A stretch of 64,000 bases of DNA. Origin: Acidobacteriota bacterium. Its GTDB lineage: Bacteria > Acidobacteriota > UBA6911 > RPQK01 > JAJDTT01. Location of the stretch: contig OZ253580.1 in the NCBI GenBank assembly GCA_965263035.1, positions 288,001 to 352,000 on the forward strand. The letters are read 5' to 3'. The notes under the pieces were generated by a model. It had not been told where the DNA came from and did no database searches. It saw only the letters and a list, made by a program, of their open reading frames with translations. The position numbers and the translations under genes are program-made. Positions 5,470 through 53,020 of the stretch are shown in pieces; positions within the stretch are counted from its first letter, which is position 1, and the number at the start of each line of letters is the position of its first letter.

Positions 5470-5613
5470 GAGGGGCGACCAGGAGTGGCGACTTTCTTGT
5501 CGCCTGCTCCGGACTGTACAGGGGGGACTAATCGTCCCCCCTTGCCCCCCCTGGTCGGCGACAAGAAAGTCGCCGCTCCACCCCCCAATCGGCGGCAAGA
5601 GAGTCGCCGCTCC
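5470..5613. repeat. REP/REPIN-like element, subfamily B, copy 1
   Basis: ggagtggcgactttcttgtcgcc ... gggggactaatcgtccccc ... ggcgacaagaaagtcgccgctcc ... ggcggcaagagagtcgccgctcc; same units at 23811/24470, 36422 and 59676. Confidence 0.85.
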
Positions 5614-21474: not shown

Positions 21475-23805
21475 GTGCTCCTGGTGGGTGTGGTCCGCCT
21501 CCTGACCGAGGAGCAACAGCGTCCTCGACTCGCCGTTGATCGGAATCAGACCGTCGAGTTGGTGGGCCGGATCGATCACCCGCCTCTCGCGCTGAAGAGG
21601 GGGTTGTATCTGGAGATCACTCCCCTCTCGGTTCGGCAAGCGGGCCGCGATCTTTCCCTTCCCGGCAAGGTGGCTCTCTACGTCTACTCCCTTCCCGGAG
21701 GATCCGAGTCGGAGCCATTCCTCCGCTACGGCGAGAGACTGCGGGTCAGCGCCTTCCTGGAGGACCCGACCCACCACGGAATCCCGGGAGTGGACGACCT
21801 GCGCCTGCGCTTCTGGCATCGGGGAATCGTGGGAGTGGTGCGTCTCAAGTCGCACCTCCAGGTCCGGCGCCTGGGGCCGGATCCGGGATGGGATCCGCGA
21901 AGGCCGCTGTTCGCGTATGTCCGATCGTTCGAGCGCTTCTGCCGGCGGACCCTGAAGCCGGAGCAGGAGAATCTGGTCCTGAGCACCCTTCTGGGTCAGA
22001 CCCGCCGGCTCGAGGAGGTCGATCGCGTCAGCATCGAGAAGCTGGGAATCTTCCACCTCTTCGCCGTGTCCGGATTTCACGTCTCACTGGTCTACCTGTT
22101 TCTCCATCTCCTGTCCCGTCCCCTGGGGTTGGCCGGGCGCCTCCTGGCTCTGGCCGCCGTCTGGAGCTATGTCGTGGCCGTGGGAGCTCCCGTCTCCGCC
22201 ATCCGGGCCGGACTCATGGCCAGTTGGATCCATCTCCTCTTGTCGTTGGGCCTGAAGTCCCAGTTCCTCAACGGTCTCGGTGTGGCCGCCCTGATCACGT
22301 TGGGGTTCCGTCCCCAATCCCTTCATACGGCGAGCTTCCAATTCTCCTATCTGAGCCTCCTGGCCATTGGGCTCTGCGTCTTTCCGGTCCAGCCCTGGAT
22401 CCAGACCCTGCGGCGAACCGCATGCTCGGTTTTTTTGCCTCAAGTCCGGGTCGAGGCGACGACCCCGGGACGACTGGGACGGCGAATCCGATACCGTCTG
22501 GAGCATCTCCTGGAGCCGCTGCCCCGAACCCTGTCCCAATCCCTGGTTCCCGCGTTGAGCCGCGGCTCCGGATCGGTCCTTTCATTGGTCTCGTGCACGC
22601 TCTGCATCCAACTGTTCACGCTGCCTCTGGCCCTCTACTACTCCAACCTCTGGTGCTGGACCCATTGGCTGTCCAATCTGGTCCTGGTTCCCTGCTTCTC
22701 CCTCTTCCTGCTGGCCGCCTTTCTCCTGCTCATCACCTACTGGCTTCCCACCGGAGAGAGTCTCTCCGTGCTGGTGGGGACGGTGGCCGATCTGATCCGT
22801 ATGCTGATGGAACTGGTGCAGTGGATCGCCACCATTCAGTACGTGCCCCACCCCTCGACCGCCGAGCTGATCCTCTACTTCCTGCTTCTGGGACTGGGCC
22901 TGATCCTGGGCCGGAGGGCACTCCACCTCCTCTGGCTGGCGCCGGTGCTCCTCTTCCTGTCCGTCACCTGGGAGTCCGATTCGGCGACCGGACAGCTGGA
23001 GGTCACCCTGCTGGACGTGGGCCAGGGGGAGAGCATCCACATCTCCTATCCCGACGGATCCCACGCACTGGTGGATACCGGGGGCCGCTGGTCGTGGGAT
23101 GCGGAGCCCAGCCGCTTCGTCGGGCAAAGACTGGTGGGACGCTACCTCTGGCACCGGAGAATCCGGAACCTCTCCTACGTCCTCTTGACCCATCCCCATC
23201 AAGACCACGTGCAAGGTTACGAGTTCATCCGGCAGGCCTTCCCGGTGGGACAATTGATGGTTGCGGAACCTCCGGCCGGAGAGCTGCCGGAACAACGGCT
23301 GACCCTGAGCGACGGTCAGGCCTTTTTCCAGGGGGGAGTCGGGCATCGGGTGCTCCATCCACCCGGGAAGGGGGACCCGGTATGGAACTCCGCCGGCGCC
23401 AACAACAGGTCCGTGGTCCTGCTCCTCGTGTACGGGCGCTTCCGCATGCTGTTGACGGGAGACATCGACCGGAACATCGAGGGGAGATTGATCCCCAGGC
23501 TGGGACGGACGGCGGTCCTCAAGGTGGCACACCATGGGAGTGGCTCCAGCAGCTCTTCCCCGTTCCTTTCCCGGCTGCGGCCCCGGGTGGGCCTGATCTC
23601 GGCTGGACGCAAAAACCCCTTCGGTCATCCCTCCCAGGCCGCCCTGCACCGCCTCCGCCGGGCCGGAGCGCTCCCCCTCTCCACCAGCCAATGGGGGAGC
23701 CTGCGCGTGAAGACCGACGGACGAAGCTGGCGGGTCGCCCACTACCGGCGCCAGACCGATAGCTTTTGTCCCATCACCGGAGGATTTGTGGAAGAGGAGA
23801 ATTGA
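21475..23805 (+). CDS. comEC: DNA internalization competence protein ComEC/Rec2
   Basis: Competence domain (HLFAVSGFHV, SAIRAGLM, SFQFSY) plus MBL domain (DVGQGE, THPHQDH, LTGDI, VAHHGS, FGHP); start uncertain. Confidence 0.93.
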   Translation: MLLVGVVRLLTEEQQRPRLAVDRNQTVELVGRIDHPPLALKRGLYLEITPLSVRQAGRDLSLPGKVALYVYSLPGGSESEPFLRYGERLRVSAFLEDPTHHGIPGVDDLRLRFWHRGIVGVVRLKSHLQVRRLGPDPGWDPRRPLFAYVRSFERFCRRTLKPEQENLVLSTLLGQTRRLEEVDRVSIEKLGIFHLFAVSGFHVSLVYLFLHLLSRPLGLAGRLLALAAVWSYVVAVGAPVSAIRAGLMASWIHLLLSLGLKSQFLNGLGVAALITLGFRPQSLHTASFQFSYLSLLAIGLCVFPVQPWIQTLRRTACSVFLPQVRVEATTPGRLGRRIRYRLEHLLEPLPRTLSQSLVPALSRGSGSVLSLVSCTLCIQLFTLPLALYYSNLWCWTHWLSNLVLVPCFSLFLLAAFLLLITYWLPTGESLSVLVGTVADLIRMLMELVQWIATIQYVPHPSTAELILYFLLLGLGLILGRRALHLLWLAPVLLFLSVTWESDSATGQLEVTLLDVGQGESIHISYPDGSHALVDTGGRWSWDAEPSRFVGQRLVGRYLWHRRIRNLSYVLLTHPHQDHVQGYEFIRQAFPVGQLMVAEPPAGELPEQRLTLSDGQAFFQGGVGHRVLHPPGKGDPVWNSAGANNRSVVLLLVYGRFRMLLTGDIDRNIEGRLIPRLGRTAVLKVAHHGSGSSSSSPFLSRLRPRVGLISAGRKNPFGHPSQAALHRLRRAGALPLSTSQWGSLRVKTDGRSWRVAHYRRQTDSFCPITGGFVEEEN

Positions 23806-23810
23806 GGAGC

Positions 23811-23839
23811 GGAGCGGCGGCTTTCTTGCCGCCGATTGG
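23811..23839. repeat. REP subfamily B unit (3' exon side of the intron)
   Basis: ggagcggcggctttcttgccgccgattgg. Confidence 0.8.
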
Positions 23840-24469
23840 ATCGGGTCGAGTGCAGGGGATTGCGCCCCTGCACCCTCCCACACCACCGGACGTACCGTTT
23901 TCAGTATCCGGCGGTTGGAGTCACTCGAGGCTCTTTCGAGCCTCGTAAAGGGCCTTTCTTTCCGGTTTTCGCCGCCGCTGGGACTTGATCTCCGCCCTTC
24001 CGGCTTGACGGGTTCCACCCTTGGGCCTTCCGTGCCGGGTCCGAGGGGCCTCCCCCCGCCCCGTTTCCGGAGGTAGTTGCGATCCCGCTGACGAGTCCAC
24101 CATAGGGCCAGTCCGACTCCTTCGGTCCTTCGCTCCACCGGCATTATCCGGCTTCTTCGCTACTATGACCTCTGCTGACTTCTCAAAGGCTCTCACCCTT
24201 GAGATCTCCCCGAGTAAGGTGCTGCATCTTTCCCCCCGGGCCGCCCGGCTCTACCTGGTACGTCTGGATGGGGTTCGGGTTTCGCTGTTGCTCGCCAGCT
24301 CACCGCCCGCACCCGGCCTCGCTGCCGGTTCGTGTTCCTGCGGTCGTGGGTTTGCCTTCCGCTTCCTTCAGCTTCACCTCGCGGCTACGCCTTGCGGTTC
24401 GGCTAGGGTTGGTCCCATCACCTCCCTTGGGATCTTTCATCCCTTAGATACAGCCCATGTCGGGCGCAC
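23840..24469 (-). mobile_element. ORF-less class IIC group II intron (630 nt)
   Basis: Minus strand starts GTGCGCCCGACATGGG; has CCTTACTCGGGGAGATCT and AGAAGTCAGCAGAGGTCATAGTAG IIC motifs; DIV closed by GGAGTC/GACTCC; DV AACCGCCGGATACTGAAAACGGTACGTCCGGTGGT (CGC triad); DVI ends GACCCGAT; no RT ORF. Confidence 0.92.
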
Positions 24470-24530
24470 GAGCGGCGGCTTTCTTGCCGCCGATTCGGGG
24501 GGGCAGGGGGGGCTGGAAGCCCCCCCTCTA
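24470..24530. repeat. REP subfamily B unit (5' exon side of the intron)
   Basis: gagcggcggctttcttgccgccgatt followed by gggggggctggaagccccccc. Confidence 0.8.
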
Positions 24531-24597
24531 CACACCCCCCACACACCCTCAAATTCGTATACTAAGGCCTGATCGCGTTCACGAGACCCAAACCGCC

Positions 24598-25974
24598 GTG
24601 TCTCAGAAATCTCTCCTACAAAAAAACCACGCCCCATCCTACGCCACCTCTCGCAGGCTGGTGGACGCAGTCGGTTGTTGGTGCGCGTTAGGCTACGGGG
24701 CCCTCGCCTATCTGGCGCGACAGCCCGGTGAACCGGATCTGTCCATCTTCTTCGTCCTGGCGGCCTGGACCGGACTTCCGGTCTTCGGACTCTACTTCTA
24801 TTTTCGGCGGCGGGGCGAACCGTTTCCGATCGGGCGCATGTTCTTCTGGGCCGTGGTGTTCAGGGTCTTCGGCCTCGTCGGTGGACCCTTTTTCGAGGAC
24901 GACTTCTATCGTTACCTATGGGACGGCTACCGATTCGCCACGGCCGGAACGCCCTACGGCGCGGCGCCGGAGGCGTTCTTTCTGGACACGAACGTTCCGG
25001 CGGCGTTTCAACAATCGCTGGACAACATCAACAACCCCGACCTGCCGACCATCTACGGACCGACGACGCAGCTCCTCTTTCTGCTGGGCTACTGGCTGCA
25101 ACCGGGCAGCGTGACGGCACTGCAGTTGATCCTGATCCTGATCGACCTGGGTATGGTCTGGGTCCTGCTCCGTATGACGCCAGCCCGGAACGTCATGCTC
25201 TACGCGTGGTGTCCACTAGTGGTCAAGGAGATCGCCTTCACGGCCCATCCGGACGGCGCCGGAGCCTGCCTGCTCATGGCGGCGATCCTGCTCGTCCGAA
25301 ACCGGCGCCGGGGAAGCGCCGCCGTCTGCCTGGGGATGGCCGCCGGGGCCAAGATCTTCGCCTTGGTGCTGGCGCCGTTGGTGTTGCTGCGAGCTCGACC
25401 CCGCCACTGGTTGCTGTTCGGCGCTACACTCGCCGGGTTGTATGCTCCATTCGCCCTGATGGGCGGCACGAACCTCACCTCGTTGCAGGTTTTCGCACGG
25501 GAATGGGAGTTCAATTCCGCGGCCTTCGGCTTGCTGGGGACCCTGTTGCCACGGTTCGAGGCCCGGCTGATTCTGGGTCTGATGTTCGCCGTTTTCTGGC
25601 TGCGCCAGGCCGCCAGGTTTGCACGAGGCGGCCAACACGCCATCCCCCGGGGCGATTGGCTCTACGGAGGGTTGCTCGTGGTTTCCCCGGTGATCAATCC
25701 CTGGTATCTCCTCTGGTTGCTCCCGTTCGCGGCCATCTTCCCCAGCGCCTGGGCCTGGACGGCCTCGGGCGCCGTCCTGCTCAGCTACGTGATCGGAATC
25801 CACCTGGATGACTACACCTTGCAGGCCTACCAGCAGCCGACATGGATCCGATTCCTGGAATTCGGTTTGATCTTGCTGGCGCTGGCCGGCGACCTGATCC
25901 GGCGGCGGTCCACAAGCCTGGATGTCGGAACGGACCCCGGGCATAGCGCCCATATGCCATGTACGAGAACCTGA
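24598..25974 (+). CDS. Polytopic membrane glycosyltransferase (GT87/DUF2029-like, GT-C fold)
   Basis: EDDFYRYLWDG, INNPDLPTIYGP, YAWCPL..KE....H, WEFNS, PVINPWY; many TM helices; start inferred at GTG 24598. Confidence 0.75.
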   Translation: MSQKSLLQKNHAPSYATSRRLVDAVGCWCALGYGALAYLARQPGEPDLSIFFVLAAWTGLPVFGLYFYFRRRGEPFPIGRMFFWAVVFRVFGLVGGPFFEDDFYRYLWDGYRFATAGTPYGAAPEAFFLDTNVPAAFQQSLDNINNPDLPTIYGPTTQLLFLLGYWLQPGSVTALQLILILIDLGMVWVLLRMTPARNVMLYAWCPLVVKEIAFTAHPDGAGACLLMAAILLVRNRRRGSAAVCLGMAAGAKIFALVLAPLVLLRARPRHWLLFGATLAGLYAPFALMGGTNLTSLQVFAREWEFNSAAFGLLGTLLPRFEARLILGLMFAVFWLRQAARFARGGQHAIPRGDWLYGGLLVVSPVINPWYLLWLLPFAAIFPSAWAWTASGAVLLSYVIGIHLDDYTLQAYQQPTWIRFLEFGLILLALAGDLIRRRSTSLDVGTDPGHSAHMPCTRT

Positions 25975-47674: not shown

Positions 47675-48247
47675 AAATGAAGGTGTCCCGTTTTCGTGGA
47701 CGGTTTATTAGTGCGGTTTACGTTGGTCTAGGTTGTAATACTCCTTCTGTCGTTGGGGAGCAAGACTTCCTCCCGCTGAATGTCAATGGCCATAGAAAAT
47801 GTCAGGGTGTTGACCATTGACAGAGCGTTCTTTCTTCTGTGGGGGGACTGATGGAGGCGTCAGCAAAAGGGCTCACGTTGTGGGAAATCTCTGATTTTCC
47901 ACAATGGGATACCGCGTAACGAGGGGGCCTCGGCGCTCTCTTTCCAGGGATTTAAGAGTGGTGTGTATCTCTTTGCATCCGGGGGTCTCAGGGGGGCAGC
48001 GCCCCCCTGCCCTCTTCAATCGTGTCGCGCGCGACGCTTGGTGCGACGGTGATGGTGCTGGTTTCGTGGTCGAGCAGCGCGAAAACGAACCGGTTCGTGA
48101 GGCGGCGTCAGTCCTTCTGAGCCTCCCGGCCCGCAGGACCGGCATTGGAGGCAGGAAAGACGACCCCAGCAGGTCATCACTGCACTCGGCGAGAGCACGA
48201 ATCGGGGATCTCGTCGTCCGGATCGAGTTTCGACGACGGCGTGGGTC

Positions 48248-49153
48248 CTACGCTGCCTGCTGCTCGTAGCGGACCGGCGACTCGTAGCCCAGCGCCGAGT
48301 GTCGGCGCCGCCGGTTGTAGAATCCCTCAATGAAGTCGAAGACGGCCCGCCTCGCCTGATTCGGATTCCGGAACTGGTGACAGTCCAGCAACTCGCACTC
48401 TAGCGTCGCGAAGAAGCTCTCGCACATCGCGTTGTCGTAAGCGTCCCCCACCGAGCCCATCGACGGCCGCACCCCGGCCTCCCGGCATCTCTTCCCGAAG
48501 GCAGTCGAGGTGTACTGCGCCCCCTGGTCCGAGTGGTGGATCACCTGCTTCGGCTGCCGCCGTATCACCGCCATGGCGAGCGCCTTTTCGACCAGTTCGG
48601 AGCGCAGATGGGTCTCCATCGCCCAGCCCACAACCAAGCGGCTCCAGGCGTCCAGGACCACGGCCACGTACAACCAGCCCGCCTTCGTGCGGACATACGT
48701 CAGGTCCGCCACCCAGAGCTGATCCGGTCCCTCAGCCGCGAAGTTCCGGTTCACCAGGTCCGGCGCGGGACGGGCGTCCCGGTCCCTCCGGGTGAGCCCG
48801 GCCTTCCGGTGCCTCCGGCTCGCCCCCTGAATCCCGGCTTCCCGCATCAATCGACCGACACGCTTCGGGCTCGTCCGTTCCCCTCGAGCTCTCAGTTCGG
48901 CATGCAGACGAGGCCGACCGTAAACTCTCCGGTTCTCGTTCCAGATCTGCACGATCTTTTCCCGAAGCGCCTGGTCCTGGCGAGCTCGATTCGAGGGCAG
49001 ACGTTTCAACCAGGCGTAGTACCCACTGGGGGAAAGACCCAACACGCGGCACATCACCCGAATCGGAAACTGGGCCCGGTGCGCCTTTACGAACTCGAAT
49101 CCTTTCCGGGGATCGAGTCGCTCTCCCGGGCGAACCAAGCCGCGGCTTTTTTT
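48248..49153 (-). CDS. IS3 transposase OrfB (DDE integrase core), reached by -1 frameshift
   Basis: WVADLTY, HHSDQGAQY, DNAMCESFF, YNRRRRHSALG; slippery A7G at 49146-49153. Confidence 0.9.
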   Translation of the reverse strand, partial: KKSRGLVRPGERLDPRKGFEFVKAHRAQFPIRVMCRVLGLSPSGYYAWLKRLPSNRARQDQALREKIVQIWNENRRVYGRPRLHAELRARGERTSPKRVGRLMREAGIQGASRRHRKAGLTRRDRDARPAPDLVNRNFAAEGPDQLWVADLTYVRTKAGWLYVAVVLDAWSRLVVGWAMETHLRSELVEKALAMAVIRRQPKQVIHHSDQGAQYTSTAFGKRCREAGVRPSMGSVGDAYDNAMCESFFATLECELLDCHQFRNPNQARRAVFDFIEGFYNRRRRHSALGYESPVRYEQQAA

Positions 49154-49401
49154 AGGATGTCCCGCTCCATCCGCAGGCGCTTGATCTCCCGCCTCGCCTG
49201 GCGCAACTCCTGGCGCTCGAACGTCGTCAACCCGTCGCTCCGGTGCCCCTCGTCCAGATCGGCCTGCTTGACCCACTTCCGGATCGCCGAAGCCGAGGGC
49301 TCGAACTCCCGCGCCAGTGCCTCCGGCGATCGCCCCGAGCGCACCAGCCCTACGATCTCCCGCCGGAACTCCGGCGGATACCGTCTCTGCTTTCTTGCCA
49401 T
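49087..49401 (-). CDS. IS3 transposase OrfA
   Basis: RRYPPEFRREIV, HTH, leucine zipper, ERDILKKAAAWF. Confidence 0.9.
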   Translation of the reverse strand: MARKQRRYPPEFRREIVGLVRSGRSPEALAREFEPSASAIRKWVKQADLDEGHRSDGLTTFERQELRQARREIKRLRMERDILKKAAAWFARESDSIPGKDSSS

Positions 49402-49459
49402 CGTGGATCCCTCCTTACTCCCCTACTTTGGAAGTGTCCACGAAAGCGGGTCAACTCCA

Positions 49460-52876: not shown

Positions 52877-53020
52877 ACAGGGGTCGGGAAGTACGGTTAC
52901 CCGGCTCCCCTCCCTCCGAACCGCACGTGCGGTTCTCCCGCATACGGCTCTCCAGTCAGTAGGTTCCTGTGGATTGGACGAAACGAAGATATGCCCACGC
53001 TCGACATAATTCTGCGCCAA
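52877..53020 (-). mobile_element. 3' remnant (DV-DVI) of a non-IIC group II intron
   Basis: Minus strand GAGAGCCGTATGCGGGAGAACCGCACGTGCGGTTCGGAGGGAGGGG is a canonical DV with AGC triad; degenerate DVI ...CCGACCCCTGT; no RT or 5' domains seen. Confidence 0.8.

What the first reader, a model, noticed from the sequence alone, without database searches (positions are those of the whole stretch)
23840..24469. ORF-less group IIC intron inserted precisely at a REP hairpin: candidate non-autonomous retroelement that targets REP repeats
Seen in sequence: on the minus strand a 630-nt element has the IIC 5' end (GTGCGCCCGACATGGG), conserved DI-DIII motifs, a DIV closed by GGAGTC/GACTCC with no RT ORF but a clean GAAA-capped hairpin (CGAGGCTC-GAAA-GAGCCTCG, 23926-23945), a DV with the CGC triad and a DVI ending CCCGAT. 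The 5' exon ends GGCGGCAAGAAAGCCGCC-GCTC, a REP-B hairpin plus 4 nt. The 3' exon starts with the REP's last C and a second REP unit, so removing the intron restores a tandem REP like the one at 5556-5613. Established: IIC introns insert just downstream of stem-loops such as terminators and attC sites and need an RT/maturase. Inference: this is a streamlined ribozyme mobilised in trans that uses a dispersed REP family as a safe intergenic landing pad.
Basis: partly seen in the sequence, partly recalled or inferred. Interest (0 to 1): 0.85.

Follow-up and report, generated by a model that had tools for sequence, protein, structure and literature searches.

The report
RT-less group II intron colonising REP hairpins
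A 630-base self-splicing-type intron that has lost its own reverse transcriptase has spread to about two dozen places in this bacterial genome, always landing just after a small repeated hairpin, which makes it a clear natural example of a parasitic ribozyme that borrows an enzyme from a few complete relatives.

Summary
Window 23840-24469 (-) is an ORF-less class C group II intron with all six domains (Rfam hits; fold).

- **Copies.** The 6.2-Mb genome has 24: 19 intact ORF-less, 3 ORF-less broken by insertion sequences, and 2 of 1848 nt encoding an identical intact RT/maturase without an endonuclease domain.
- **Target.** All 24 follow a hairpin plus GCTC; 23 of 24 3' exons start with C. GCTC pairs with a GAGC loop in domain I. 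In congeners the loop is GAGG and the exon ends CCTC.
- **REP family.** The hairpin is a true REP: 170 exact copies and RAYT-like genes. Only GCTC-tailed hairpins are occupied: 17 of 92 against 0 of 78.
- **Strand bias.** Occupied sites face the replication fork in 14 of 17 cases, empty ones in 19 of 75. That fits endonuclease-independent retrohoming.
- **Empty site.** The orthologous site is empty in five congeners.

Trans-mobilisation is inferred, not shown; RNA data were inconclusive. The closest precedent is the ORF-less introns of Thermosynechococcus. A second ORF-less family sits in the REP loop on the other strand.

The parts
23840..24469 (-). Complete ORF-less class C group II intron, 630 nt (family A). 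It is one of 19 intact ORF-less copies in the genome.
   Evidence: Rfam hits. Ends are identical in 24 genomic copies. Fold and consensus structure.
24208..24469 (-). Domain I (intron about 1-262), including the 5' GUGCG.
   Evidence: MFE and RNAalifold structures. RF02001 covers intron 82-249 at 81.4 bits.
24290..24293 (-). EBS1 = GAGC, in the loop GCGAGCAA closed by GCUG/CAGC. It pairs with IBS1 GCUC of the 5' exon.
   Evidence: Covariation. GAGC goes with GCTC in G000 (24 of 24) and G004. GAGG goes with CCTC in G001, G003 (6 of 6) and G008.
24124..24207 (-). Domains II (intron 263-294) and III (intron 300-346).
   Evidence: RF01998 at 47.2 bits. Helices 15-18 are 99.5-100% paired.
23917..24120 (-). 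Domain IV without an ORF. It is closed by GGAGUC/GACUCC. It keeps about 170 nt of the 5' part of the parental DIV and the last bases of the RT ORF including its stop.
   Evidence: Alignment with the RT-bearing copies and with ORF-less copies of congeners. It is the most variable domain: pi 0.0355 against 0.0127 and 0.0159 elsewhere.
23926..23945 (-). Deletion scar: a perfect hairpin CGAGGCUC-GAAA-GAGCCUCG that replaces 1238 nt of RT ORF.
   Evidence: The 19 intact G000 ORF-less copies show the identical junction in the alignment. The 3 IS-broken copies align without a gap across it. The parental stem flanks the ORF.
23882..23915 (-). Domain V: a 9-bp helix with a CGC triad, an AC bulge, a 4-bp helix and an AAAA loop.
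   Evidence: RF00029 at 39.4 bits. All 14 pairs are invariant in 22 sequences (helix 32).
23842..23880 (-). Domain VI with a bulged A (window 23846) 7 nt from the 3' splice site.
   Evidence: Structures. Five pairs vary only by G-U-compatible changes and are 100% paired (helix 33).
24470..24491 (-). 5' exon target: REP hairpin GGCGGCAAGAAAGCCGCC (24474-24491) plus IBS1 GCTC (24470-24473).
   Evidence: All 24 copies are preceded by a hairpin directly followed by GCTC. The genome has 170 exact hairpins, 92 with a GCTC tail, of which 17 are occupied.
24492..24545 (-). Upstream half of a composite repeat: GTGTAGAG, a G/C-rich hairpin and a C-run. This composite often precedes the REP hairpin.
   Evidence: A related composite has 25 exact cores in the genome, 9 followed by the intron and 16 empty.
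23811..23839 (-). 3' exon: C (IBS3 candidate, 23839), then a second REP hairpin (23816-23833) plus GCTC-C. This second unit is an unoccupied target.
   Evidence: The 3' exon starts with C in 23 of 24 copies. All 75 empty GCTC sites are followed by C.

Best explanation
The element is a non-autonomous class C (IIC) group II intron: a complete ribozyme whose reverse-transcriptase/maturase ORF in domain IV has been deleted and capped by a tetraloop hairpin.

**Likely cycle**
1. ORF-less copies are transcribed by read-through from neighbouring genes (inferred).
2. The RT/maturase made by the two 1848-nt family members binds them in trans and helps them splice (inferred, by analogy with Thermosynechococcus).
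3. The RNP recognises a DNA stem-loop followed by GCTC (IBS1, paired with EBS1 GAGC) and C. It does so where the target strand is single-stranded as lagging-strand template at a replication fork.
4. The RNA reverse-splices in. Because the RT has no endonuclease domain, a nascent lagging strand primes cDNA synthesis.

The abundant target is a REP family maintained by RAYT-type transposases. Insertions therefore land almost always in intergenic repeats, at low cost to the host.

**Shown here:** the anatomy, the copy number, the target rule, EBS1/IBS1 covariation, the strand bias, the empty orthologous site, and the presence of an intact cognate RT.

**Inferred:** transcription, splicing, and which RT does the work.
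For: **Ribozyme identity and integrity**
- Rfam D1-D4 and DV/DVI hits.
- 190 consensus pairs, with 98.9% of 3230 cells paired.
- 7 pairs carry compensatory changes. 0 of 500 shuffles reached that number, and slid controls gave 0-4.
- The catalytic domains are about 3 times less variable than DIV.

**Family**
- 24 copies share identical ends: 19 intact ORF-less (95-100% identical, ten of them at least 99.5%), 3 ORF-less copies broken by IS elements, and 2 RT-bearing.
- All 22 ORF-less copies have the same deletion form.

**RT**
- Both 1848-nt copies encode the same open 466-codon frame, with RVT_1 at 3e-38, GIIM at 4e-7 and YADD, and no other domain.
- The best solved relative is GsI-IIC RT at E 3.7e-134.

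**Target rule**
- 24 of 24 copies follow a hairpin plus GCTC, and 23 of 24 have C at +1.
- Among the 170 exact REP hairpins, 17 of 92 with a GCTC tail are occupied, against 0 of 78 with other tails (p 1.4e-5).
- One copy sits after a non-REP hairpin plus GCTC inside a gene. The rule is therefore structure plus IBS1, not the REP sequence as such.

**EBS1/IBS1 covariation across species**
- In G003, 62 GCTC-tailed hairpins of this REP exist. Yet its 6 introns with EBS1 GAGG all sit at CCTC sites.

**Replication-coupled insertion**
- 20 of 24 copies are co-directional with the fork (p 0.0015).
- Occupied exact REP-GCTC sites are co-directional in 14 of 17 cases, empty ones in 19 of 75 (Fisher p 2e-5).

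**Insertion polymorphism**
- The orthologous ComEC-downstream site lacks the intron in 5 of 5 congeners examined.

**Precedent**
- The 17 ORF-less introns of T. elongatus derive from one deletion and are mobilised by IEPs of related introns (PMC2882425, passages read).
Against: - No direct evidence of transcription, splicing or mobility. In two metatranscriptome runs no clean ligated-exon joint was seen; the one joint across the intron carried 31 foreign letters.
- The resident RT-bearing copies are not the immediate parents. In the tree the G000 ORF-less copies group with ORF-less copies of G001 and G008 (SH-aLRT 100), apart from all RT-bearing copies. The 5' part of DIV, where maturases usually bind, differs most between the two forms: overall identity over intron 1-517 is 91-92%.
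- By a crude ORF-based call, only 11 of 24 copies are co-oriented with the upstream gene. A source of sense transcripts is therefore not obvious. The window copy is antisense to both neighbours.
- One intact-length copy has a mutated 5' end, GTACGCCCGG, and three are IS-broken. Part of the family is dead.
- 4 of 24 copies have the disfavoured orientation.
Confidence: 0.8

Rival explanations
1. The copies are immobile relics. One ancient ORF-less intron was carried around passively with the REP or composite repeat, by RAYT-mediated REP spread, recombination or segmental duplication. It did not move by reverse splicing.
For: - REPs are themselves dynamic. The orthologous intergenic region holds 0 to 4 REP units in different congeners.
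- 9 copies share a roughly 70-nt composite repeat upstream.
- RAYT-like genes are present.
Against: - Similarity between copies stops exactly at the intron ends on the 3' side, and at the REP or composite on the 5' side.
- 16 of 25 composite cores and 75 of 92 REP-GCTC sites are empty, with an intact GCTC|C junction.
- Occupied and empty sites have opposite replication-strand bias. Passive co-spread would not produce that.
- EBS1 covaries with the exon tail across species.
- One copy lies at a non-REP hairpin inside a gene.
Confidence: 0.04
2. The ORF-less RNAs are active but do not depend on the cognate RT of the two full copies. Either another RT in the genome (family D, 33% identical) mobilises them, or they act protein-free as DNA-cleaving or self-integrating ribozymes like the described ORF-less IIC 'HYER' RNAs.
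For: - ORF-less IIC introns that hydrolyse ssDNA have been described (passage in 10.1101/2024.08.31.610620 read; the original Science paper is not held and is recalled only).
- The ORF-less lineage persists in G001, where no cognate RT was found with this query; the best hit was 36% identical.
- A second ORF-less family (B) has 7 copies in G000, three of them at least 99% identical, with no cognate RT in the genome; the best tblastn hit was 36%.
- The ORF-less lineage is phylogenetically separate from the RT-bearing copies.
Against: - The large expansion (22 copies) is seen in G000, where an intact cognate RT co-resides. G001, without it, has a single copy.
- DI-DIII and DV-DVI of the ORF-less and RT-bearing copies are nearly identical, as expected if one protein serves both.
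- DNA copies require reverse transcription by some RT.
- The replication-strand bias is the signature of RT-dependent, endonuclease-independent retrohoming.
Confidence: 0.1
3. The element has been domesticated. Its RNA or its insertion serves the host or the REP/RAYT system, for example by processing REP-containing transcripts or blocking REP hairpins, and it is kept by selection rather than spread as a parasite.
For: - Strong conservation of the catalytic domains relative to DIV.
- Persistence of the ORF-less lineage across three species.
- Summed contig depth over the intron in two RNA libraries is 50-400 times that of the flanks, against about 20-50 times in presumptive DNA runs. This is a weak measure.
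Against: - Copies differ in location between species, and the orthologous site is empty in 5 of 5 congeners.
- Three copies are IS-disrupted and one has a damaged 5' end.
- One copy disrupts a dehydrogenase-like gene.
- Conservation is equally explained by recent copying from a functional master.
Confidence: 0.04

Closest known systems
ORF-less TeI3 introns of Thermosynechococcus elongatus, mobilised in trans by IEPs of related TeI4 introns (Mohr, Ghanem, Lambowitz 2010, PMC2882425; passages read)
   Same: - A family of ORF-less copies sharing one deletion in DIV, with ORF remnants on both sides.
- ORF-less copies outnumber RT-bearing ones.
- Good EBS/IBS pairing at the insertion sites.
- Mostly intergenic insertion.
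- Related intact RT genes in the same genome.
   Different: - Those introns are a different structural class, with long EBS1/EBS2 pairing. They diversified their targets through EBS changes, and some IEPs carry an En domain.
- Here the intron is class C. It has a single target rule (hairpin plus 4 nt), the target is a pre-existing dispersed REP family, the ratio is 22 to 2, and mobility is untested.
Class C (IIC) group II introns that insert after intrinsic terminators or into integron attC sites (for example B.h.I1, GsI-IIC, S.ma.I2). The target rule is recalled. The Monachello 2016 abstract (PMC4748821) and the Leon 2010 abstract (PMC3001079) were seen in the listing.
   Same: - RT without an En domain, closest to GsI-IIC RT.
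- Small ribozyme of about 426 nt outside DIV.
- Insertion directly 3' of a DNA stem-loop with a 4-nt IBS1.
- CGC triad in DV.
   Different: - The stem-loop is a REP hairpin without a U-tract, not a terminator or attC.
- By a crude call, only 11 of 24 copies are co-oriented with the upstream gene.
- Most copies have no ORF.
HYER RNAs: ORF-less class IIC introns reported to hydrolyse ssDNA. A passage in 10.1101/2024.08.31.610620 was read. The original paper is not held and is recalled only.
   Same: Compact ORF-less IIC ribozymes occurring naturally in bacterial genomes.
   Different: No activity is known for this element. Here an intact cognate RT is present and the insertion pattern points to retrohoming. 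I could not see whether the HYER paper describes REP targets or copy-number bursts.
REP-targeting mobile elements: IS elements that insert in REPs, and the Pseudomonas putida KT2440 group II intron listed as REP-associated in 2 of 9 copies (Tobes and Pareja 2006, PMC1525189; table passage read)
   Same: A dispersed REP family serves as an insertion site for other mobile elements, including a group II intron.
   Different: In P. putida only 2 of 9 intron copies were REP-associated and no rule was given in the passage seen. Here 23 of 24 copies sit at one fixed position of REP-type hairpins, with base-pairing covariation and strand selection.

Membership tests
Group II intron ribozyme | Six-domain secondary structure with conserved 5' GUGYG, a DV helix with catalytic triad and 2-nt bulge, and DVI with a bulged A near a 3' AY | tested here: met
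   Rfam RF02001 at 81.4 bits, RF01998 at 47.2 bits, and RF00029 at 39.4 bits (cut-off 40). The MFE and consensus folds give DI-DVI. 98.9% of cells are paired.
Group II intron ribozyme | Self-splicing or protein-assisted splicing activity | not testable with these tools
   No clean ligated-exon joint was seen in two RNA runs kept as contigs. RT-PCR or an in vitro assay is needed.
Class C (IIC) group II intron | Intron-encoded RT of the class C lineage, lacking DNA-binding and endonuclease domains | tested here: met
   This was tested for the 2 RT-bearing family members. Only RVT_1 and GIIM were found. The best PDB matches are GsI-IIC RT at 3.7e-134 and a group IIC RT (7uim) at 2.7e-102. No formal RT phylogeny was made.
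Class C (IIC) group II intron | Insertion immediately downstream of a DNA stem-loop, with a short (3-4 nt) IBS1 and a single-base IBS3 | tested here: met
   24 of 24 copies follow a hairpin plus GCTC, and 23 of 24 have C at +1. EBS1/IBS1 covary. The EBS3 nucleotide was not located.
Class C (IIC) group II intron | No EBS2/IBS2 pairing; small domain I | not tested
   The ribozyme outside DIV is about 426 nt, consistent with class C sizes as recalled. Absence of EBS2 was not examined systematically.
Non-autonomous (ORF-less, trans-mobilised) group II intron | ORF deleted from DIV with recognisable remnants, and the ribozyme otherwise intact | tested here: met
   Alignment with the RT-bearing copies: 1238 nt are replaced by a GAAA-capped stem. 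The structure is conserved.
Non-autonomous (ORF-less, trans-mobilised) group II intron | A related intact RT/maturase gene in the same genome | tested here: met
   Two copies have an identical open frame, at C1:529488-531335 and C1:2572796-2574643.
Non-autonomous (ORF-less, trans-mobilised) group II intron | Demonstrated mobilisation by the RT supplied in trans | not testable with these tools
   The evidence is indirect only: a burst of 10 near-identical copies, strand bias and an empty orthologous site.
REP (repetitive extragenic palindromic) element / REPtron | Short imperfect palindrome, many dispersed and mostly extragenic copies, often in tandem or clustered | tested here: met
   There are 170 exact copies of the 18-nt hairpin plus variants. 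Tandem units occur at window 5556-5613 and flanking the intron. The family is present in all 5 congeners searched. The extragenic location was not surveyed genome-wide.
REP (repetitive extragenic palindromic) element / REPtron | Associated RAYT (Y1/HUH transposase) gene flanked by the REPs | tested here: met
   There are two Y1_Tnp matches over the cut-off. One is flanked on both sides by REP-variant hairpin pairs, but its frame is split in two. The other is an open 238-aa frame with REPs on one side.

The most novel reading that the evidence does not exclude
In this genus the REP hairpins may be a shared safe harbour that sustains long-lived lineages of RT-less group II ribozymes, which persist and even burst without a cognate RT in the cell.

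- Family A survives as an ORF-less lineage across at least three species, one of which has no cognate RT.
- Family B has 7 copies in this genome, three of them nearly identical, inserted in the REP loop on the opposite strand. Its own RT is found only in other species.

If these RNAs are mobilised by non-cognate RTs, or integrate with little protein help at single-stranded REP hairpins, RT-less ribozymes would behave as a self-standing class of bacterial mobile element. The two families would partition the two strands of one repeat.
Probability: 0.15. Interest if true: 0.85.

Novelty: new variant of a known kind. Interest (0 to 1): 0.64.

Why it matters
[quoted passage not shown] The one well-studied proliferating case is a cyanobacterial non-class-C family.

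This locus belongs to a class C family in which RT-less copies outnumber RT-bearing ones 11 to 1. The target rule can be read directly from 24 insertions and 75 empty sites. The replication-strand signature of endonuclease-independent retrohoming shows up inside a single genome.

The family offers three things:
- a natural, countable system for studying how a ribozyme parasitises both an RT and a second repeat family (REP/RAYT);
- a test of how IIC introns read DNA hairpins;
- compact (630 nt), evidently well-folding IIC ribozymes with a simple 4-nt guide, of the kind now being explored as DNA-targeting RNAs.

The second family in the REP loop raises a further question: whether ORF-less introns can outlive their own RT.

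Tried and rejected
**RNA evidence**
- Four runs kept as contigs were laid on window 22900-25400.
- No contig joins 23839 to 24470 cleanly. The single 'skips 635' joint in one RNA run carries 31 other letters between its sides and has a 24-letter side, so it comes from another REP locus.
- No empty-allele contig was seen in the two presumptive DNA runs.
- Summed contig depth over the intron greatly exceeds the flanks in all four runs. With 24 copies, other organisms' introns (a spike over the conserved DIII motif) and contig-level depth, this says nothing firm about expression.

**Metagenome scan**
- The scan for the 21-nt deletion junction gave one locus (L147). It shares only those 21 bases with the element, so it is a chance match.

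**EBS1 and the host's REP tail**
- I considered that EBS1 tracks the dominant REP tail of each host genome.
- Counts of GCTC against CCTC tails for this hairpin are: G001 14/0, G003 62/29, G004 9/1, G008 25/1, G002 19/8.
- These do not fit, because the GAGG introns live in genomes where GCTC tails dominate. I rejected the idea.

**Family D as parent of family B**
- blastn with word size 7 found only 10-20-nt matches, so this was rejected.

**Gene-orientation analysis**
- It used stop-to-stop ORFs filtered by GC3 and is only rough.

**Window 52877-52952**
- The RF00029 hit (52 bits) has no D1-D4 match and no RT ORF within 3 kb. I take it as an isolated 3' fragment and did not pursue it.

**Tools and papers not available**
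- Simon et al. 2008 (PMC2525955) is not held.
- Supplementary files were not opened. Supplements of PMC8919778 and PMC2882425 may list comparable ORF-less expansions that I could not see.
- Not-in-print statements rest on the searches only.
Full report
**1. What is at the coordinates**

Read on the minus strand, window 24469 to 23840 starts GTGCGCCCGACATGGG and ends CCCGAT.
- Rfam places two group II D1-D4 models on it: RF02001 at 81.4 bits against a cut-off of 32, and RF01998 at 47.2 bits against 35.
- With the permissive threshold, the DV/DVI model RF00029 scores 39.4 bits, just under its cut-off of 40, at E 5e-6.
- No ORF with RT character lies inside it.

The minimum-free-energy fold (-270.6 kcal/mol) and the RNAalifold consensus of 22 related sequences give the canonical layout:
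- DI: about 1-262
- DII: 263-294
- DIII: 300-346
- DIV: 350-553, 204 nt, closed by GGAGUC/GACUCC
- DV: 555-588, with a 9-bp helix carrying a CGC triad, an AC bulge, a 4-bp helix and an AAAA loop
- DVI: 590-628, with a bulged A 7 nt from the 3' end

On that alignment 190 pairs are predicted and 98.9% of 3230 cells form standard pairs. Seven pairs carry changes on both sides; none of 500 shuffles reached that number, and slid controls gave 0-4. The structure was derived from these same sequences, which inflates the paired percentage. Even so, variation in stems is overwhelmingly G-U-compatible, and DV is invariant.

**2. It is one of a large family**

BLAST of the 630 nt against the organism's own 6,198,070-base single-contig genome (GC 62%) finds 24 elements with the same first and last bases.
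- 19 are intact ORF-less copies of 630-632 nt, 95-100% identical to the window copy. Ten are at least 99.5% identical.
- 3 are ORF-less copies interrupted by insertion sequences. Two carry a 1782-bp IS3-like element that has about ten copies in the genome. One carries a 4.7-kb insert with a serine-recombinase ORF and IS21-like ORFs.
- 2 are 1848-nt copies (C1:529488-531335 and C1:2572796-2574643, both minus strand). In these, intron positions 518-539 are replaced by 1238 nt.

Both long copies carry the same open 466-codon frame, with YADD, RVT_1 (3e-38) and GIIM (4e-7), and nothing else. Its best solved relative is the GsI-IIC RT (E 3.7e-134, query residues 56-451). The next is another group IIC RT (7uim). 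The protein therefore probably starts at the Met at codon 58 (MEQVV).

tblastn with this RT finds only three things elsewhere in the genome: those two genes, a second intron family with a 33%-identical RT, and a 30-aa relic.

**3. How the ORF was lost**

In the RT-bearing copies the ORF sits in the loop of a DIV stem. All 22 ORF-less copies of this genome have the same junction, a perfect CGAGGCUC-GAAA-GAGCCUCG hairpin at window 23926-23945.

Congeners carry related ORF-less forms with longer remnants.
- G003 (657 nt) keeps an in-frame stub: the first four codons joined to the last eight and the stop.
- G001 (648 nt) and G008 (650 nt) are intermediate.

A maximum-likelihood tree (31 rows, 630 of 1916 columns kept, quick search with SH-aLRT only, rooted on a same-order intron with a long branch) shows the following.
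- The 19 G000 ORF-less copies group with the G001 and G008 ORF-less copies in one clade (support 100).
- That clade is separate from all RT-bearing copies of G000, G003 and G004.
- The G003 ORF-less copy sits among the RT-bearing ones.

So there were at least two independent ORF losses. The lineage in this window is older than the species and is not a fresh derivative of the two resident full-length copies. Within G000 there is an older, more diverged set of nine copies and a young cluster of ten. That pattern fits successive master copies.

**4. The target**

All 24 copies are preceded by a hairpin whose 3' arm is directly followed by GCTC. 23 of 24 are followed by C.
- In 17 copies the hairpin is exactly GGCGRCAAGAAAGYCGCC.
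- Most of the rest are variants, such as GGGGGTTGCAAACCCCC and GGGGACAAGGATGTCCCC.
- One is an unrelated 7-bp hairpin (GGCCATC...GATGGCC) inside the 3' part of a zinc-dehydrogenase-like ORF, on its antisense strand. This is an ectopic and presumably damaging insertion.

The exact 18-nt hairpin occurs 170 times in the genome. 92 copies are followed by GCTC, 33 by CCTC and 45 by other tails. The intron occupies 17 of the 92 and none of the other 78 (Fisher p 1.4e-5). All 75 empty GCTC sites continue with C.

The tetranucleotide is complementary to GAGC in the loop GCGAGCAA of a DI hairpin (window 24290-24293), the usual place of EBS1.
- In G000 (24 of 24) and G004 the pair is GAGC with GCTC.
- In G001, G003 (5 RT-bearing copies plus 1 ORF-less) and G008, the loop reads GAGG and the 5' exon ends CCTC.
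- G003 contains 62 GCTC-tailed copies of this same hairpin, yet its six GAGG introns all sit at CCTC sites.

This is direct covariation evidence for EBS1/IBS1 pairing and for insertion by reverse splicing.

**5. The hairpin family is a real REP**
- It is dispersed, often tandem (window 5556-5613; both sides of the intron), and present throughout the genus.
- Its number at an orthologous site varies from 0 to 4 between species.
- Two Y1_Tnp (RAYT-type) matches exceed the Pfam cut-off. One is flanked on both sides by pairs of REP-variant hairpins, though its frame is split. The other is an open 238-aa frame with HUH and Tyr motifs next to REPs.
- About a third of the intron copies lie after a longer composite repeat (GTGTAGAGT, a GGGGACTCCGTCCCC hairpin, a C-run, then the REP). 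That composite has 25 exact cores, 16 of them without an intron. The intron is therefore a guest of the repeat, not part of it.

**6. Signature of the mobility mechanism**

Cumulative GC skew puts the origin near 2.86 Mb and the terminus near 5.84 Mb.
- 20 of 24 family A copies have their sense strand co-directional with fork movement, that is, on the lagging-strand template (binomial p 0.0015).
- The REP itself has the opposite bias. Of the exact REP-GCTC sites, 14 of 17 occupied ones are co-directional, against 19 of 75 empty ones (Fisher p 2e-5).
- So 14 of the 33 favourably oriented exact sites are already filled.

This is what endonuclease-independent retrohoming predicts, priming from nascent lagging strands and/or using single-stranded hairpins at the fork. 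Miura et al. 2022 report a lagging-strand bias for bacterial-C introns (PMC8919778, passage read). Passive spread with the repeat is hard to reconcile with it.

**7. Insertion polymorphism**

The window copy lies between the 3' end of a ComEC-like gene and the next gene, antisense to both. In all five congeners examined (G001-G005) the two genes are adjacent, with 21-242 nt between them and no intron.

**8. Selection on the ribozyme**

Among the 19 intact G000 copies, nucleotide diversity is 0.0127 in DI-DIII, 0.0159 in DV-DVI and 0.0355 in DIV. With the three congeners added, the figures are 0.022, 0.022 and 0.077. Between ORF-less and RT-bearing copies of G000, DI-DIII differ at only a handful of positions. 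Nearly all of the 8-9% divergence lies in DIV.

**9. What is not shown**

Transcription, splicing and trans-mobilisation are inferred.
- RNA runs exist only as assembled contigs of metatranscriptomes. They show no clean ligated-exon joint, and their depth cannot be interpreted.
- By a crude call, only 11 of 24 copies are co-oriented with the upstream gene.
- The 5' part of DIV, the usual maturase-binding region, is where the ORF-less and RT-bearing forms differ most.
- The expansion does coincide with the presence of the cognate RT. G000 has 22 ORF-less copies and 2 RT genes. G001 has one ORF-less copy and no cognate RT found with this query (best hit 36% identical).

**10. Comparison with what is known**
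- The closest precedent is the T. elongatus family. Its 17 ORF-less introns derive from one DIVb deletion, outnumber the ORF-containing ones, and are mobilised in trans by 'driver' IEPs (PMC2882425).
- Reviews state that ORF-less introns are rare in bacteria and usually co-reside with related introns whose IEP may act in trans (PMC4424553).
- Class C introns are known to insert after terminator stem-loops and attC sites (abstracts seen; otherwise recalled).
- ORF-less IIC RNAs have been described as DNA-hydrolysing 'HYERs' (passage; the original paper is recalled).
- REPs are known targets of IS elements. A P. putida group II intron is listed as REP-associated in 2 of 9 copies (PMC1525189).
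- My five literature searches turned up no report of a class C ORF-less burst aimed at one fixed position of a REP family. Nor did they turn up two intron families sharing one REP. Subscription papers and supplements were not visible.
- I therefore rate it a new variant of a known kind.

**11. Host**

A same-order genome (G031) carries a related RT-bearing intron on a contig whose public title reads Acidobacteriota bacterium MAG. The host is thus probably an acidobacterium. Related RTs (47-68% identical) occur widely in Acidobacteriota, Verrucomicrobiota, Alicyclobacillus, Burkholderia and others.

**12. A second family, noticed in passing**

Seven ORF-less copies of 642-643 nt belong to a different group II intron (family B: RF02005 at 165 bits, an AGC triad in DV, and RF00029 at 36.9 bits).
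- They are inserted inside the loop of the same REP on the opposite strand: GGAG(C/G)GGCGRCT | intron | TTCTTGYCGCC.
- A 6-nt candidate EBS1, AGUCGC, is complementary to the 5' exon end.
- All seven are co-directional with replication.
- RT-bearing versions exist in G002, G004, G005 and G007.
- The G002 RT has no homologue above 36% identity in G000, so the family is an orphan here. Even so, three of its copies are at least 99% identical.

Noticed in passing
L025:749-1390 (= G000 C1:3066875-3067516, +). Six more copies lie at C1:2436403-2437044(-), 6114886-6115527(-), 3743283-3743925(+), 3351629-3352271(+), 2482159-2482801(-) and 680748-681390(-).: This is a second ORF-less group II intron family (B, 642-643 nt, RF02005 at 165 bits, AGC triad). 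It is inserted inside the loop of the same REP hairpin on the opposite strand. All 7 copies are co-directional with replication. Its cognate RT is found only in congeners (G002, G004, G005, G007), and the best homologue in this genome is 36% identical. One copy ends 111 nt upstream of an IS-broken family A copy.
   Followed up: partly
window 52877-52952 (-): An isolated DV/DVI match (RF00029, 52 bits). No D1-D4 match and no RT ORF lie within 3 kb upstream. It is probably a 3' fragment of yet another group II intron.
   Followed up: partly
G000 C1:436206-436835 (-): The one family A copy at a non-REP site. It is inserted antisense in the 3' part of a zinc-dependent dehydrogenase-like ORF (about 48 codons from its end), after a 7-bp hairpin plus GCTC. 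It is presumably a gene-disrupting retrotransposition.
   Followed up: yes
G000 C1:3478135-3478365 (+) and C1:2482924-2483100 (-): Two RAYT-like Y1 transposase genes. The first is split into two frames and flanked on both sides by REP-variant hairpin pairs. The second is an open 238-aa frame next to REPs and a family B intron.
   Followed up: partly
window 47678-49459 (= G000 C1:335678-337459): A 1782-bp IS3-family insertion sequence, 97.8% identical to the copies that interrupt two family A introns. The genome has about ten copies.
   Followed up: no
G000 C1: about 983.5, 5056.9, 5538.7 and 5843.3 kb: A third group II intron family (D, about 2 kb) with a 438-codon RT frame 33% identical to the family A RT. 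Three copies are full-length and one is interrupted. Its DV scores only 31 bits with RF00029.
   Followed up: partly
G003 C1:1491484-1491789, C1:113377-113720 and C1:139469-139630: Long head-to-tail arrays of the REP hairpin with a 28-nt period (up to about ten units) in a congener. GCTC-tailed and CCTC-tailed units sit in separate arrays.
   Followed up: no
G000 C1:56917-56967 and C1:1998664-1998753: Small relics of family A: a 51-nt 5' fragment (94% identical) and a 30-codon fragment of the RT C-terminus (87% identical). They point to older, decayed insertions.
   Followed up: no
G009, G011 and G012 (same family, other genus): Many hits of about 40 nt (11-14 scored per genome) to intron positions 305-346, the conserved DIII / start-of-DIV motif. 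This suggests large populations of other group II introns in those 8-9-Mb genomes.
   Followed up: no
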